In this document: positions 48,368 through 51,975 of the stretch, in pieces
Layout: each line of letters opens with the position of its first letter
Numbering within the stretch: the stretch's first letter is position 1
NCBI GenBank assembly: GCA_028716245.1
Contig: JAQUQW010000001.1
Location: forward strand, 388,322 to 452,321
Length of the DNA: 64,000 nucleotides
Reading direction: 5' to 3'
From: Candidatus Omnitrophota bacterium
GTDB lineage: Bacteria > Omnitrophota > Gorgyraeia > Gygaellales > Profunditerraquicolaceae
Position numbers and translations under genes: made by a program
The notes under the pieces: model-generated
What the model was told of the DNA's origin: nothing
What the model saw: only the letters and a program-made list of their open reading frames with translations
Database searches by the model: none

Positions 48368-48943
48368 TTATGCGCAAACCTTCTGCATAAGCCAAGCCAT
48401 GTTCTTGCCCAATATGCTCATCGTATTCAAACCTTCTTCGTCTTTTTCTACTTCTCCGATTTGGCGGCCAATCCCGATATTCCAATATAATGAACCCACA
48501 ATGATCATCTCCCCTATTGTAAAAAAATGATTGATCGTATCAAAAACATGGATTGCCCCGCCGCGCCTTACCGCAACAACTGCGGCGCCGATCTTACGCA
48601 TGAACATATTATCATTGGCTCTGGCTACCATACCCGCGCGTTCAATTAAGGCTTTGGCATTGGCCGTGCAATCGGCAAAATAAGTCGGTGAGCCAATAAT
48701 GATCCCGTCTGCCGCAATCATCTTGGCGATATACGCATTAACCGGATCATTATTCACGGCGCACTTTTTATTTTTTTTCGTAAAACACACCCCGCAACCG
48801 GCGCACCCCTGAATTTTCTCACCGGCCAACTGGATGAGCTCAGTTTCAATTCCTTTATTTTCCAATTCCTTAAAAACTTTCTTGATAAGAATCGCAGTAT
48901 TGCCGTCTTTGCGGGCGCTGGTGTTAAAAGCAACCACTTTCAT
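48368..48943 (-). CDS. iron-sulfur flavoprotein / NADPH-dependent FMN reductase family
   Basis: Flavodoxin-like fold (MKVVAFNTSARKDGNT), compact Cys cluster CAGCGVC...C, GSPTYF motif. Confidence 0.65.
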   Translation of the reverse strand: MKVVAFNTSARKDGNTAILIKKVFKELENKGIETELIQLAGEKIQGCAGCGVCFTKKNKKCAVNNDPVNAYIAKMIAADGIIIGSPTYFADCTANAKALIERAGMVARANDNMFMRKIGAAVVAVRRGGAIHVFDTINHFFTIGEMIIVGSLYWNIGIGRQIGEVEKDEEGLNTMSILGKNMAWLMQKVCA

Positions 48944-50568
48944 AGATTTACCCCCTTATATAACTGGTGGCGCTGCTCTTTAATTTGCTCATTGGCCAGA
49001 TATTCATCAAAGGTGGTGCTGATGCGATCAATGTATCCTCTGGGAGTGATCTCAATAATACGGTTGGCTACAGTCTGGATTAATTCGTGGTCATGCGAAG
49101 AAAATAAAATTGTCCCGGGAAATTTGTTCAGGCCCCGGTTTAAAGAAGTGATTGATTCTAAGTCCAGGTGGTTAGTCGGCTCATCTAAAATAAGGACGTT
49201 TGGCTGGATAACCATCATCCGCGTAAACATACAGCGGGCCTTTTCCCCTCCGGATAAAACATTCACCGGCTTAAGCGCTTCTTCCCCTGAAAAAAGCATA
49301 CGGCCTAAAAAAGATCGGATATACTCCTCTTCGGTATTGAGTGAATATGTTTTAAGCCAATCAGGAATATTTAATGGTGAATTAAAAAATTTAGAATTGT
49401 CCTTTGGAAAATAAGCCCGGCGGGTGGAAACCCCCCATTTAAAAGTTCCGCCATCAGCCGGAGTTTCATTCATCAGGATTTCAAAAAGCATGGTCTTAGC
49501 AAGGTCATCGGGCCCGACAAAAGCGACTTTATCCCCCTTGTGGATAGTAATATTAAGCCGCTCAAACATAGTCTCCCCGTCTGAGCGCTTAAACAGGTTA
49601 TTTATACTTAAAAGGTCATTACCGGCTTCCCGCTCCGGCTCAAAATTAATATACGGGTATTTACGCGAGGAAGGCTGGATATCTTCAACGGTAAGTTTTT
49701 CCAGGATCTTTTTACGGCTGGTTGCCTGGCGCGATTTAGCGGCGTTATTGGCAAAACGCATGATAAAATTCTTTAAGTCTTTGCGTTTTTCTTCTATTTT
49801 TTTATTGGTTTCGCTGCGCTGGCGGGCGGCAAGCTGGCTGGCTTCTGACCAAAAAGAATAATTACCGGCGTAAAGATGGATTTTAGAAAAATCAATATCG
49901 GCAATATGCGTACAGACTTTATCCAAAAAATGCCGGTCGTGCGAAACAACGATAGCGATATTTTGGAAATCACAAAGGAATTCCTCAAGCCACATACTCG
50001 ATTCCACATCTAAATGGTTAGTCGGTTCATCCAGAAGCAGGATATCCGGGGTGCCGAATAATGCCTGCGCTAATAAAACGCGAAATTTCAGCCCGGCTTC
50101 CAACTGGCTCATCTGCGCCGCGTGCAAAGATTCTTCGATACCCAAATCACTTAAAAGCTTGGCCGCGTCAGACTCGGCATTCCAGCCTCCCAATTCGTTA
50201 AACTCTTCCTCCAGCTTCGAAGCATGCATGCCATCTTCATCGGTAAACGGGGCCTTGGAATAAATAGCCTCCTTCTCAGCCATAATTTCATAGAGCCTTT
50301 TATGGCCCATAATAACCGTAGTCAAAACTGTATATTGGTCAAAAGCAAACTGGTCCTGCTTTAAGACTGAAATCCGCTTTCCCGGAGATACGTTAACTTC
50401 CCCGCTGGTCGAATCAATCTCGCCTGAGAGAATTTTTAAAAAAGTGGATTTACCCGAACCATTGGCGCCGATTAAACCATAGCAATTACCGGGGGAGAAA
50501 ACGATATTTACGTTTGAGAAGAGTTTGCGCTGGCCAAATTGCAGTGATACGTTATTTACGGAAATCAT
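48940..50568 (-). CDS. ABC-F family ATPase (tandem ABC domains, no TMD)
   Basis: Two Walker A (GANGSGKST, GPDDLAKTML-like), two ABC signatures (LSGG) and an inter-domain linker; 542 aa. Confidence 0.85.
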   Translation of the reverse strand: MISVNNVSLQFGQRKLFSNVNIVFSPGNCYGLIGANGSGKSTFLKILSGEIDSTSGEVNVSPGKRISVLKQDQFAFDQYTVLTTVIMGHKRLYEIMAEKEAIYSKAPFTDEDGMHASKLEEEFNELGGWNAESDAAKLLSDLGIEESLHAAQMSQLEAGLKFRVLLAQALFGTPDILLLDEPTNHLDVESSMWLEEFLCDFQNIAIVVSHDRHFLDKVCTHIADIDFSKIHLYAGNYSFWSEASQLAARQRSETNKKIEEKRKDLKNFIMRFANNAAKSRQATSRKKILEKLTVEDIQPSSRKYPYINFEPEREAGNDLLSINNLFKRSDGETMFERLNITIHKGDKVAFVGPDDLAKTMLFEILMNETPADGGTFKWGVSTRRAYFPKDNSKFFNSPLNIPDWLKTYSLNTEEEYIRSFLGRMLFSGEEALKPVNVLSGGEKARCMFTRMMVIQPNVLILDEPTNHLDLESITSLNRGLNKFPGTILFSSHDHELIQTVANRIIEITPRGYIDRISTTFDEYLANEQIKEQRHQLYKGVNL

Positions 50569-50571
50569 GGG

Positions 50572-51240
50572 TTAAAAATAATATATGCCTTTCCAATAAT
50601 CCATATATTCGGCTTCGGATATTTTGCCATCCTTATTCTTGTCCATTTGCTTAAAGTATTCGCTAAATTGCAAACTGGATTCATCCTTGGTAATTTTACC
50701 GTCTTTATCTTTATCGGCATTTTTAAGCATTTTTGTATTATCAACTGCCAGTTCTTTTGAGTCAATAACCCCATTTTTATCTTTGTCTAATTTCTCAAAT
50801 TTTCCGGCTTGATACGCCTGCATTTCTTTTGAGCTAATGAACCCGTCTTTATTCGTATCCATTTTCTGAAACTCCGGCTTAATTACCGCAAGCATATCCG
50901 CCTGTCCGGCAAAAGCATTAACGCCGCTGAATAAAATTATACAGAAAAATAAAGTAACGGCCCTGGATGAATTCAGCATCATTTTCTCCTTTCGTTTTTT
51001 CGATCTAGACAATTCTACTTTTTTCTTTGGCGGCAGGCGCTTGATCGCAGCTTCCCGTTTTAAAGCAGCAGACCTGCTTGCGGCTTTTTCAGCGTGCACC
51101 AATTTTACCGGAGCTCTGCCCCTGGTAAACCTGCAGCCGCATCCAGCATTATGCTCTTTTATCCTGCGGGCTAAATCTGTGGTGATGCCGGTATATAACA
51201 AAGCGCCCTTACACTTGATGATATAAATATACCAGGGCAT
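50572..51240 (-). CDS. in-frame fusion: GIY-YIG (YhbQ/UPF0213-like) nuclease domain, then signal peptide and four EF-hand calcium-binding motifs
   Basis: N-terminal YIYIIKCKGALLYTGITTDLARRIKEHN (GIY-YIG); after about 95 aa an internal MMLNSS..signal peptide, then DTNKDG, DKDKNG, DKDKDG, DKNKDG loops. Confidence 0.5.
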   Translation of the reverse strand: MPWYIYIIKCKGALLYTGITTDLARRIKEHNAGCGCRFTRGRAPVKLVHAEKAASRSAALKREAAIKRLPPKKKVELSRSKKRKEKMMLNSSRAVTLFFCIILFSGVNAFAGQADMLAVIKPEFQKMDTNKDGFISSKEMQAYQAGKFEKLDKDKNGVIDSKELAVDNTKMLKNADKDKDGKITKDESSLQFSEYFKQMDKNKDGKISEAEYMDYWKGIYYF

Positions 51241-51248
51241 AAATTAAG

Positions 51249-51782
51249 CTACTTCTTTTGATATAAGCCGACTAACTGGGCCTGATCCAAAATATGGCCG
51301 GTCATAGCAAACTCTAAATTCGTTTTACTTATTCCGGCCTTTAAATTCAACAGTGTATCTAAGGCGTATATTTTAAAAAAATAACGGTGGACTCCGGCGG
51401 GCGGACAGGGGCTGACATAACCTGACTTACCCAAAGAATTAACACCCTGTTTTCCAAAAACACTGTTTTCTTCTACGCGGCTAGTAACCGGTGCGTCATA
51501 GACCACCCAGTGCACAAAATCACCGCCCGGAGCATCGGGGTCATCGACAATTAAGGCCAGGCTCTTGGTTTCTTTGGGCAACCCTTCAATAGATAGGGGC
51601 GGATTTACACCCTTACCTTGACAAGTGAATTTTACAGGAATAAAGGCATTATGTTCAAATGCCGGACTGGATATGCGCATATTAGCACCCTCCTCTGCCT
51701 TAGATTCGATATTTAAGGCTAATGATATTAATCCTAACAACAATATAATAAATGGTATTTTGATTCTCAAATTATGCACCAT
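51249..51782 (-). CDS. YbhB/YbcL (PEBP/Raf-kinase-inhibitor-like) family protein, secreted
   Basis: Signal peptide; PEBP motifs DPDAP...HWVV and GY.GP.PP.G.HRYFF. Confidence 0.7.
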   Translation of the reverse strand: MVHNLRIKIPFIILLLGLISLALNIESKAEEGANMRISSPAFEHNAFIPVKFTCQGKGVNPPLSIEGLPKETKSLALIVDDPDAPGGDFVHWVVYDAPVTSRVEENSVFGKQGVNSLGKSGYVSPCPPAGVHRYFFKIYALDTLLNLKAGISKTNLEFAMTGHILDQAQLVGLYQKK

Positions 51783-51795
51783 CTTATGGATTAAA

Positions 51796-51975
51796 TTAAT
51801 AAAGAGTCAACTCTCTAATCTTCTTTTCAATCAGTACTTTATGCTTCTCTTCTTCGGTTAGTAAAAACGAGAGCAGTTCTTTTAAGCCGGGATGGTCCAC
51901 CAACATCTTTTGGTAGGTTTCAATCGAGTTGTTTTCTCTGGATAACGCAATTTTAAGCGCTTCAAGATCGATCAT
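51796..51975 (-). CDS. 59-aa hypothetical protein (sub-threshold ORF)
   Basis: Hand-translated MIDLEALKIALSRENNSIETYQKMLVDHPGLKELLSFLLTEEEKHKVLIEKKIRELTLY; strong SD AAAGGAGGGC; packed between gpmA and the PEBP gene. Confidence 0.45.
   Translation of the reverse strand: MIDLEALKIALSRENNSIETYQKMLVDHPGLKELLSFLLTEEEKHKVLIEKKIRELTLY

What the first reader, a model, noticed from the sequence alone, without database searches (positions are those of the whole stretch)
50572..51240. Read-through fusion of a cytoplasmic GIY-YIG (YhbQ-like) nuclease domain to a secreted four-EF-hand calcium-binding protein
The first 95 aa or so are a complete YhbQ/UPF0213 GIY-YIG domain ending in a basic tail. With no stop, the frame continues into MMLNSSRAVTLFFCIILFSGVNAFAGQ, a classical signal peptide, and four DxDxDG EF-hand loops. 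An internal signal peptide after a folded cytoplasmic domain is topologically odd. Either the downstream protein is translated independently from the internal ATGs and the stop of the GIY-YIG gene has been lost, or the assembly has an error, or this is a real signal-anchor fusion.
Basis: seen in the sequence. Interest (0 to 1): 0.5.

Follow-up and report, generated by a model that had tools for sequence, protein, structure and literature searches.

The report
Frameshift fused nuclease and calcium-protein genes
Two neighbouring bacterial genes, a small cytoplasmic GIY-YIG nuclease and a secreted lanmodulin-like calcium-binding protein, were joined into one reading frame by one extra base in a run of A's; the join is real and inherited in three related Omnitrophota genomes, but it is an ordinary evolutionary accident, not a new kind of protein machine.

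Summary
The 222-codon ORF at 50572-51240 (minus strand) is real. Residues 1-78 are a complete UPF0213/YhbQ-type GIY-YIG domain, 79-86 a basic tail, 87/88-111 a classical signal peptide (AFA|GQ), and 112-222 four EF-hand loops. It is not an assembly error: two other Omnitrophota genomes (L001/L002 and L008, 88-90% nt identity over 8-10 kb) carry the same 222-codon fusion. Relatives show the ancestral state. In L007 and L018 the GIY-YIG gene (86-87 aa) ends at a TGA inside the EF-hand gene's ATGATG/GTGATG start. In six further loci it has its own stop and another gene follows. Other loci lack it. The fused clade has a net +1 nt in the A-run 50995-51000, just 5' of the EF-hand gene's AAGGAG Shine-Dalgarno. 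That ribosome-binding block is identical in fused and unfused relatives and the signal peptide is unaltered, so the secreted protein is most likely still made from its own start. The GIY-YIG domain can only be made as a fusion, yet is still under purifying selection (pN/pS 0.21-0.45). The fate of the fused product is inferred. At least three other read-through fusions of this GIY-YIG family onto exported proteins exist. The mechanism is ordinary and the interest modest.

The parts
51249..51782 (-). Upstream gene: PEBP/YbhB-family protein with its own N-terminal signal peptide. Its TAG stop lies 8 nt before the GIY-YIG ATG.
   Evidence: ORF list. Pfam PBP 132.6 bits. Same position in L001, L008, L007, L022, L029, L032 and L045.
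51007..51240 (-). GIY-YIG (UPF0213/YhbQ-type, Slx1-like) nuclease domain, codons 1-78. No Shine-Dalgarno core before its ATG.
   Evidence: Pfam PF01541 60.2 bits. PDB 1zg2 E 1.9e-16 and 1ywl E 2.3e-15 over aa 2-78. No SD core at 9 of 9 GIY-YIG starts. pN/pS 0.21-0.45 within the fused clade.
50983..51006 (-). Basic tail that now acts as linker, codons 79-86 (SRSKKRKE-K). From the A-run onward it is read in a different frame from the ancestral ...K(R)KSERRK* tail.
   Evidence: Junction alignment of window, L001, L008, L007 and L018.
50995..51000 (-). A6 run holding the net +1 nt relative to the two-gene relative L007 (window tcgAAAAAAcg, L007 aggAAAAGcg). This extra base puts the GIY-YIG frame into the EF-hand frame.
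   Evidence: L001 has A7 and L008 has A6 at the same place with the same total length. The outgroup L018 keeps the two-gene frame.
50986..50992 (-). Shine-Dalgarno of the EF-hand gene (AAAGGAG), now inside the fused ORF where it encodes K-E.
   Evidence: The block GAAAGGAGAAAATGATG is identical in window, L001, L008 and L007. It is present, with changes only between the SD and the start codons, in L018 and in L003, which has no GIY-YIG gene.
50977..50982 (-). ATGATG: two in-frame starts of the EF-hand gene (codons 87 and 88). The +1-frame TGA at 50979-50981 is the relic of the ancestral GIY-YIG stop.
   Evidence: In L007 the GIY-YIG ORF (151-411) ends at this TGA. L018 has GTGATG with the same overlap.
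50908..50979 (-). Signal peptide of the EF-hand protein (M88-A111): n-region with R93, h-region AVTLFFCIILFSGV, c-region N-A-F-A with predicted cleavage before G112. In the fused polypeptide this would act as an N-in signal-anchor.
   Evidence: Hydropathy and charge. It aligns with the N-termini of 18 stand-alone orthologues. Low pLDDT helix in the model. Cleavage and topology are inferred.
50575..50907 (-). Mature secreted domain with four EF-hand loops (50824-50859, 50752-50787, 50680-50715, 50608-50643) separated by 12-residue spacers. Lanmodulin-type fold. Stop codon TAA at 50572-50574.
   Evidence: AlphaFold2 pLDDT 85. Best Foldseek PDB matches are lanmodulins 8fns, 8dq2 and 8fnr.
48940..50568 (-). 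Downstream gene: ABC-F type ATPase. Its ATG lies 3 nt after the TAA of the fused ORF. It is the conserved right-hand neighbour in all related loci.
   Evidence: Synteny in L001, L003, L008, L009, L018 and L039.

Best explanation
This is a real, inherited gene fusion made by a one-base frameshift.

In the ancestor, a small SD-less GIY-YIG nuclease gene and a gene for a secreted four-EF-hand protein were translationally coupled. The nuclease ORF ended at the TGA inside the ATGATG start of the next gene, and its last codons (…E-R-R-K) spelled that gene's Shine-Dalgarno sequence.

In the common ancestor of three Omnitrophota lineages (the window, L001/L002 and L008), a net +1 nt arose in the A-rich tract just upstream of the SD. 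This moved the nuclease frame into the EF-hand frame and produced one 222-codon ORF.

Shown: the fusion exists in three diverged genomes; the two-gene state exists in the outgroups; the ribosome-binding site, start codons and signal peptide of the EF-hand gene are unchanged; both halves remain under purifying selection.

Inferred:
- Most EF-hand protein is still made from its own strong SD/ATG and exported normally.
- Ribosomes that start at the weak, coupled GIY-YIG ATG make a GIY-YIG–basic linker–signal peptide–EF-hand polypeptide.
- That polypeptide inserts N-in (positive-inside rule). Signal peptidase I probably cuts it after AFA. This would release the normal periplasmic protein and leave the nuclease domain on a short membrane stub.
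- The fusion is therefore tolerated rather than adaptive.
For: - ORF and domains.
- The same 222-codon fusion is in L001/L002 (89% aa) and L008 (83% aa). The surrounding 8-10 kb is only 88-90% nt identical and dS within the clade is 0.13-0.42, so these are separate lineages and not one assembly artefact.
- Two-gene state with TGA inside ATGATG/GTGATG in L007 (86.5% nt) and in the distant L018 at the same syntenic locus.
- GIY-YIG as a separate 79-90 aa gene in L015, L016, L022, L029, L032 and L045.
- The net +1 nt maps to the A-run 50995-51000.
- The SD+start block GAAAGGAGAAAATGATG is identical in fused and unfused relatives. Every EF-hand start has AAGGAG and 0 of 9 GIY-YIG starts has an SD core.
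- The signal peptide matches those of 18 stand-alone orthologues.
- Purifying selection within the fused clade: GIY-YIG domain pN/pS 0.21-0.45 (P 0.006-0.015), mature EF-hand domain 0.20-0.30.
- An exhaustive search finds no other cluster covering both halves, and stand-alone proteins of 90-130 aa are the norm for the GIY-YIG family.
- Similar relics of start/stop overlap occur in three other read-through fusions of this family.
- The literature already regards sporadic fusions of Slx1-like GIY-YIG domains as possibly non-functional: PMC1564403.
Against: - No expression data exist. Internal initiation, membrane insertion and signal-peptidase cleavage of the fused product are all inferred.
- The GIY-YIG domain is under purifying selection although it can only be made as a fusion. 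The fused polypeptide is therefore not mere junk, and 'tolerated by-product' may understate it.
- The persistence of the fusion in three lineages, and the recurrence of GIY-YIG fusions onto exported proteins, could reflect some advantage.
- The raw reads of the window itself could not be inspected.
- The selection tests rest on only 12-37 substitutions per pair, and the pairs are not independent.
Confidence: 0.8

Rival explanations
1. Adapted bitopic protein. The fusion is kept because a membrane-anchored, N-in GIY-YIG nuclease with a periplasmic calcium-binding domain does something useful. Examples would be tethering the nuclease at the membrane, or coupling periplasmic Ca2+ to nuclease activity.
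For: - The fusion has persisted through dS of about 0.13-0.42 in three lineages.
- The GIY-YIG domain is still under purifying selection although it is obligately fused.
- The charge distribution fits N-in insertion.
- At least three other fusions of this GIY-YIG family onto signal-peptide proteins exist.
Against: - The signal peptide, the A-x-A cleavage motif and the internal SD/ATG are unchanged compared with stand-alone orthologues.
- Only about five codons separate the indel from the ATG, so keeping the frame open needs no selection.
- The fusion is confined to one small clade among billions of proteins searched.
- The partner proteins in the other fusions are unrelated. Two of those cases come from single metagenome contigs, and the hit list is biased towards long proteins.
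Confidence: 0.12
2. Sequencing or assembly error: a homopolymer miscount in the A-run creates a fusion that does not exist, and the organism really has two genes.
For: The frame change lies in an A6/A7 homopolymer, a classic site for indel errors. The reads could not be checked.
Against: - The same frame is found in the window, in an NCBI MAG and a separate Logan assembly that hold an identical gene (L001, L002), and in a MAG from a different project (L008).
- The sequence around the run differs among them (tcgA6c, ttA7c, ttA6g), yet the total length is the same.
Confidence: 0.03
3. Recoding. Ribosomal frameshifting or transcriptional slippage at the A-run restores a free GIY-YIG protein, so the 'fusion' is a programmed two-product gene.
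For: L001 (A_AAA_AAA) and L008 (A_AAA_AAG) have canonical -1 slippery heptamers in the correct frame (read). Deleting one A from the mRNA would restore the ancestral …ERRK* end.
Against: - The window itself has the imperfect G_AAA_AAA.
- The ancestral stop needs a +1 shift, not a -1 shift. By direct reading of the sequence, a -1 shift gives an unrelated tail of about 26 residues.
- There is no stable downstream RNA structure (MFE z = +0.99).
- From general knowledge, A6-A7 runs are shorter than the runs of about 9 or more that are known to give efficient transcriptional slippage.
- The A-richness is explained simply by the lysine-rich tail.
Confidence: 0.04
4. Decaying gene. The GIY-YIG part is a pseudogene remnant that merely extends the 5' end of the EF-hand ORF.
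For: Many related genomes have lost the GIY-YIG gene from this locus altogether (L003, L009, L039). It has no SD of its own.
Against: - The domain is full length.
- The GIY/YIG motif residues, the Arg pair and the Glu are intact in all three fused genomes (alignment).
- pN/pS of 0.21-0.45 is significantly below 1.
- The lack of an SD is the norm for this gene, including where it is clearly a separate gene.
Confidence: 0.03

Closest known systems
UPF0213 / YhbQ-type (prokaryotic Slx1-like) GIY-YIG proteins, e.g. Bacillus halodurans BH0048 (PDB 1zg2) and Enterococcus faecalis EF2693 (PDB 1ywl)
   Same: Residues 2-78 align end to end with these proteins, with the family's conserved motifs. Relatives of the window's gene are stand-alone proteins of 79-130 aa.
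   Different: [quoted passage not shown] The biochemical role of the bacterial family is itself unknown; it has only been predicted to act in double-strand-break repair (PMC1564403).
Sporadic domain fusions of Slx1-like GIY-YIG domains described by Dunin-Horkawicz, Feder and Bujnicki 2006 (PMC1564403)
   Same: A small GIY-YIG module joined to an unrelated neighbour in a narrow lineage, while close relatives keep separate genes. The authors caution that such single fusions may not be functionally relevant.
   Different: The partner here is an exported protein, so the two halves belong in different compartments. The event can also be traced to a single-base change at an overlapping stop/start.
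Lanmodulin (LanM) of Methylorubrum extorquens and Hansschlegelia quercus (PDB 6mi5, 8fns, 8dq2)
   Same: A small periplasmic protein with a signal peptide and four EF-hand loops 12 residues apart. It is the best sequence match in the PDB (6mi5, E 6.9e-13) and the best structural match for the model (8fns, TM 0.66 normalised to the target, 2.9 Å, 38% identity).
   Different: It scores 65.7 bits against an NCBIfam LanM cut-off of 135. It has no proline at loop position 2 (T, K, K, K instead), the feature tied to lanthanide selectivity (PMC13172409; PMC9260416). No lanthanide or methanol-dehydrogenase genes lie nearby. It is most likely a Ca2+ binder.
Translationally coupled gene pairs with ATGA/GTGA overlapping stop-start, and their conversion to fusions by frameshift (general bacterial genetics; own knowledge)
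   Same: The ancestral arrangement in L007 and L018 is exactly such an overlap. One indel upstream merges the frames.
   Different: Nothing unusual, except that the downstream gene encodes a signal peptide, which ends up in the middle of the polypeptide.

Membership tests
UPF0213/YhbQ-type GIY-YIG nuclease (Pfam PF01541) | Matches the GIY-YIG profile above the curated threshold | tested here: met
   60.2 bits against a cut-off of 22.6, aa 3-69
UPF0213/YhbQ-type GIY-YIG nuclease (Pfam PF01541) | Full-length similarity to solved UPF0213 proteins | tested here: met
   1zg2 E 1.9e-16 (aa 2-78) and 1ywl E 2.3e-15
UPF0213/YhbQ-type GIY-YIG nuclease (Pfam PF01541) | Conserved motif residues (Y-x-Y of 'GIY', Y-T-G of 'YIG', Arg pair, His, Glu in ...KREAAIK...) | tested here: met
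   Present in the window, L001 and L008 by inspection of the alignment. Which residues are catalytic is taken from general knowledge of the superfamily.
UPF0213/YhbQ-type GIY-YIG nuclease (Pfam PF01541) | Stand-alone single-domain protein of about 80-130 aa | tested here: not met
   In the window it has no stop and is fused. The feature is met in relatives L007, L018, L022, L029, L032 and L045 and in most library hits.
UPF0213/YhbQ-type GIY-YIG nuclease (Pfam PF01541) | Nuclease activity | not testable with these tools
   Needs biochemistry.
Lanmodulin (NCBIfam NF053806) | Score at or above the equivalog cut-off | tested here: not met
   65.7 bits against a cut-off of 135
Lanmodulin (NCBIfam NF053806) | Four EF-hand loops separated by short spacers of 12-13 residues, and a compact fold | tested here: met
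   Loops at 128-139, 152-163, 176-187 and 200-211. The model's top three PDB matches are lanmodulins.
Lanmodulin (NCBIfam NF053806) | Proline at position 2 of the EF-hand loops | tested here: not met
   Position 2 is T, K, K, K. The feature is described in PMC13172409 and PMC9260416.
Lanmodulin (NCBIfam NF053806) | Lanthanide selectivity, or a lanthanide-utilisation gene context | tested here: not met
   Neighbours within about 6 kb are PEBP, a gpmA-like gene, ABC-F, FMN reductase, DUF362/Fer4 and LOG-like genes. Metal selectivity itself cannot be tested here.
Sec-type secreted protein with cleavable signal peptide | N-terminal n-h-c signal peptide with small residues at -3 and -1 | tested here: inconclusive
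   The motif is present (R93; h-region 94-107; A109-F-A111) and is N-terminal in 18 orthologues. In the annotated 222-aa ORF it is internal and becomes N-terminal only if translation starts at M87/M88. No dedicated predictor was available.
Signal-anchored (type II, N-in) membrane protein | One hydrophobic span with positive charge on the N-terminal side and no signal-peptidase site | tested here: not met
   The span and the positive-inside charge are present (10 K/R in aa 70-94). However, the A-x-A cleavage motif of the stand-alone orthologues is retained unchanged.
Programmed frameshift / transcriptional slippage site | In-frame slippery motif, plus a stimulatory element, plus a defined product in the shifted frame | tested here: not met
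   The heptamer is imperfect in the window. There is no stable downstream structure (z +0.99). A -1 shift gives an unrelated tail, and the ancestral stop needs +1.

The most novel reading that the evidence does not exclude
The fused polypeptide is a functional, membrane-tethered GIY-YIG nuclease. Its domain faces the cytoplasm and it either keeps or sheds a periplasmic lanmodulin-like Ca2+-binding domain. On this reading, the repeated, independent read-through fusions of this nuclease family onto exported proteins (EF-hand, DUF3108, and the partners in P0021 and P0054) reflect a selective benefit of anchoring the nuclease at the inner membrane in Omnitrophota, not mere tolerance.
Probability: 0.1. 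Interest if true: 0.55.

Novelty: new member of a known kind. Interest (0 to 1): 0.3.

Why it matters
**Annotation.** Gene callers will report a 222-aa 'GIY-YIG/EF-hand' protein. In practice the locus is best read as a nuclease ORF that has lost its stop, overlapping a normally initiated gene for a secreted protein.

**An example of a mechanism.** A lysine-rich, A-rich gene tail that also encodes the next gene's ribosome-binding site is one indel away from a fusion. This case shows all the stages in living relatives: no nuclease gene, separate genes, overlapping genes and fused genes. It also shows why fusion onto a signal-peptide protein may be unusually harmless, since internal initiation and signal-peptidase cleavage could both regenerate the native secreted product.

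**Domain-architecture inference.** It is a warning against 'guilt by association' functional inference for GIY-YIG fusions.

**Side result.** Omnitrophota encode a conserved family of lanmodulin-fold periplasmic EF-hand proteins without the lanthanide-selective proline signature.

Tried and rejected
1. **Indel in the first A6 run.** My first guess was that the frameshift sat in the first A6 run (51019-51024), which is followed by out-of-frame TAGs at 51015-51017 and 51005-51007. The alignment with L007 rejects this: the frames agree through …KKVEL and diverge only at the second A-run, 50995-51000.

2. **Recent mobile insertion.** L003 has PEBP followed directly by the EF-hand gene, which suggested that the GIY-YIG gene was a recent mobile insertion between them. 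This is rejected. The gene is an old resident of the neighbourhood in many Omnitrophota, often with a YajQ-like or other gene between it and the EF-hand gene, and it is present at the same locus in the distant L018. No other copy exists in the window.

3. **Structure model of the whole fusion.** This was abandoned because MAFFT placed the stand-alone GIY-YIG homologues under the EF-hand columns (alignment A1). Only the EF-hand protein was modelled.

4. **Fusions as the norm for the family.** The hit list suggested that most GIY-YIG relatives are fusions. This is an artefact of that list, which contains nothing shorter than 122 aa. The exhaustive library shows that stand-alone proteins of 90-130 aa are the norm.

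5. **Enrichment for exported partners.** About four of roughly ten partner types are exported proteins. I make no claim from this, because the number is small and my query included a signal peptide, which biases the ranking.

6. **Literature.** 'YhbQ' with 'GIY-YIG' returned no papers. 'UPF0213' returned one irrelevant paper.

7. **More fused loci.** The metagenome scan found none.

8. **Transcription signals.** The promoter/terminator scan shows nothing notable inside the ORF.

9. **Frameshift stimulator.** None was found.

Full report
**1. The observation**

The window has a 222-codon ORF on the minus strand from 51240 to 50575, with a TAA stop at 50572-50574 and no internal stop.

- Pfam finds one GIY-YIG domain (aa 3-69, 60.2 bits, cut-off 22.6) and four EF-hand stretches.
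- A motif scan puts the 12-residue loops at 128-139 (DTNKDGFISSKE), 152-163 (DKDKNGVIDSKE), 176-187 (DKDKDGKITKDE) and 200-211 (DKNKDGKISEAE), each 12 residues from the next.
- Between the two halves lies a basic stretch (10 K/R against 2 D/E in aa 70-94). It is followed by MMLNSSRAVTLFFCIILFSGVNAFA|GQ, the most hydrophobic part of the protein.

The nuclease part is 86 codons, not about 95, and two loops have N where D was stated.

**2. The junction**

In coding orientation the junction reads:

…CCA AAG AAA AAA GTA GAA TTG TCT AGA TCG AAA AAA CGA AAG GAG AAA ATG ATG CTG…

- A strong Shine-Dalgarno (AAGGAG, 50986-50991) sits 3 nt before ATG1 and 6 nt before ATG2.
- The +1 frame contains a TGA inside the ATGATG (50979-50981).
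- An A6 run (50995-51000) lies immediately 5' of the SD.

**3. Is it an artefact?**

No. A database search returned one full-length 222-aa homologue at 89% identity (P0001). It is encoded in an NCBI Omnitrophota MAG (L001) and in a separate Logan assembly with an identical gene (L002). A scan of one genome per species returned a third genome, MAG STD1_64 (L008), with the same 222-codon ORF at 83% identity.

Over 8-10 kb of shared synteny the three are only 88-90% identical in nucleotides, and dS within the gene is 0.13-0.42. They are therefore separate lineages.

The bases around the run differ (tcgA6c, ttA7c, ttA6g), but the total length, and hence the frame, is the same.

**4. What relatives show**

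- **L007** (86.5% nt identity) has a GIY-YIG gene of 86 codons ending …K-S-E-R-R-K-TGA. The TGA lies inside the ATGATG of a separate 135/136-codon EF-hand gene.
- **L018**, a distant Omnitrophota genome (73.9% nt), has the same arrangement at the same syntenic locus: gpmA-like, then a 152-aa gene, then GIY-YIG of 87 aa ending …E-R-R-K-TGA inside GTGATG, then EF-hand, then ABC-F.
- **L015, L016, L022, L029, L031 and L032** have the GIY-YIG gene (79-90 aa where complete, with its own stop) after PEBP, but a YajQ-like or other gene lies between it and the EF-hand gene. **L045** has PEBP followed by a GIY-YIG gene with a stop, at the end of the contig.
- **L003/L010, L009/L020 and L039** have no GIY-YIG gene, and the EF-hand gene follows PEBP or YajQ directly.

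Two separate, translationally coupled genes are therefore the ancestral state. The fused clade differs from L007 by a net +1 nt in the A-run just before CGAAAGGAG. L007 is an outgroup to the three fused genomes (dS 0.39-0.72 against 0.13-0.42), so a single event in their common ancestor is the simplest reading.

**5. Which products are made (inference from sequence)**

- The block GAAAGGAGAAAATGATG is identical in the window, L001, L008 and the unfused L007. It is present with changes only between the SD and the start codons in L018 and in L003, which has no GIY-YIG gene.
- Every EF-hand start examined has AAGGAG. None of the 9 GIY-YIG starts has an SD core, and each lies within about 12 nt of the upstream gene's end (a gap of 5-12 nt, or a 4-11 nt overlap in L048-L053), which suggests weak, coupled initiation.
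- The signal peptide and its A-x-A motif align with the true N-termini of 18 stand-alone orthologues and show no remodelling.
- The junction RNA is not structured (z = +0.99).

I conclude that the secreted protein is still produced mainly from its own start.

The nuclease domain has no stop, so it can only be made as the N-terminal part of the long polypeptide. It is nevertheless intact and under purifying selection inside the fused clade (pN/pS 0.21-0.45; P 0.006-0.015 for an excess of synonymous changes). The long polypeptide is therefore probably made and its nuclease domain used.

The basic linker before the hydrophobic span fits N-in insertion. The retained AFA|GQ motif suggests cleavage that would free the normal mature EF-hand protein and leave the nuclease on a membrane stub. 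None of these steps has been observed.

**6. Identity of the halves**

- **N-terminal half.** It belongs to the UPF0213/YhbQ group, the prokaryotic Slx1-like GIY-YIG proteins (1zg2 E 1.9e-16, 1ywl E 2.3e-15). These are normally stand-alone proteins of 90-130 aa and have no established function (PMC1564403).
- **C-terminal half.** It is closest to lanmodulin by sequence (6mi5 E 6.9e-13; NCBIfam LanM 65.7 bits, below the 135 cut-off). It is also closest by predicted structure (pLDDT 85; top Foldseek hits 8fns, 8dq2 and 8fnr), and it shares the 12-residue spacers. It lacks the loop-position-2 proline linked to lanthanide selectivity and any lanthanide gene context. It works like a small periplasmic metal-binding EF-hand protein, most likely for Ca2+, and it is not a lanmodulin by the family's own criteria.

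**7. A wider pattern, noticed in passing**

Other members of the same GIY-YIG family also read straight into exported proteins, and each keeps a relic of a stop/start overlap at the boundary.

- **GIY-YIG::signal peptide::DUF3108.** Two variants at 91% identity in four contigs (L048, L050-L052). A +1-frame TAG lies just before the internal ATG, next to an A6/A7 run.
- **P0054 / L049.** A-TGA-TT at the internal ATG.
- **P0021 / L053.** G-TGA-TC at an internal GTG.

Fusions to cytoplasmic partners also exist: DUF2461, HU and a DNA alkylation repair protein.

This fits the 2006 comment that isolated GIY-YIG fusions need not be functional. It also suggests that the A-rich tail, overlapping the next gene's initiation region, makes this gene prone to read-through fusion. 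I do not claim enrichment for exported partners, because the sample is small and biased by my query.

**8. Rivals**

- Assembly error is rejected, because three genomes carry the fusion.
- Recoding is unlikely: the heptamer is imperfect in the window, the direction of shift is wrong for the ancestral stop, and there is no stimulator.
- Pseudogene decay is contradicted by the selection test and the intact motifs.
- An adapted signal-anchored nuclease cannot be excluded, but no feature specific to the fused clade supports it.

**9. Verdict**

This is a real, clade-restricted read-through fusion produced by a single-base gain at an overlapping stop/start. It is mechanistically ordinary, and it is a new example of a known kind of event. 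It is of modest interest as a fully documented series of evolutionary stages and as an annotation caveat.

Noticed in passing
window 50575-50979 (-); alignment A2: Omnitrophota carry a conserved family of secreted proteins of about 133 aa with four EF-hands. Loop spacing and predicted fold match lanmodulin, but the lanthanide-linked proline at loop position 2 is absent and there is no lanthanide gene context.
   Followed up: partly
L048 168-1070; L050 1418-2353; L051 621-1556; L052 78-1013; L049 3001-3825; L053 230-928: Other members of the same GIY-YIG family are fused in frame onto unrelated exported proteins (DUF3108, a redoxin-like protein and an unknown protein). Each has a relic of a stop/start overlap (TAG..ATG, ATGA, GTGA) at the boundary, and in the DUF3108 case an A6/A7 run just upstream.
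   Followed up: partly
window 51240-51265 (-); L001, L007, L008, L018, L022, L029, L032, L045 GIY-YIG starts: None of the 9 GIY-YIG genes examined has a Shine-Dalgarno core. Each begins 5-12 nt after the stop of the upstream gene, as if expressed only by translational coupling.
   Followed up: partly
P0022 and about 35 related clusters: A 323-aa GIY-YIG::DUF2461 (TIGR02453) architecture is widespread (one source names Gemmatimonadales). It has an internal Met where DUF2461 begins, so it may be an old read-through fusion of the same kind.
   Followed up: no
L015 526-1020; L016 2026-2649; L029 1819-2313; L032 1935-2429; L039 1022-1516: A YajQ-like (DUF520-type) 164-aa gene is variably present between the GIY-YIG (or PEBP) gene and the EF-hand gene. 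This intergenic position is therefore a hotspot of gene gain and loss.
   Followed up: no
window 51005-51024 (-): A first A6 run is followed by TAG stops in both alternative frames (51015-51017 and 51005-51007). Any indel upstream of this point would end the nuclease ORF cleanly. It is not the site of the actual frameshift.
   Followed up: yes
L009 3038-3427; L015 9-248: In some relatives the gene upstream of this neighbourhood encodes repeats of the type NPPGPKGGPGxxWENKPGPQGGPGASPNRK. Part of it is masked as N in L009.
   Followed up: no
P0121 (5801 aa), P0125, P0131 and others: Giant proteins of 1,700-5,800 aa have 13-14 separate stretches matching the EF-hand half, which suggests very long arrays of lanmodulin-spaced EF-hand units.
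   Followed up: no
window 51796-51975 (-): A 59-codon ORF lies between the gpmA-like and PEBP genes (MIDLEALKIALSRENNSIETYQKML…). Its function is unknown and it was not examined.
   Followed up: no
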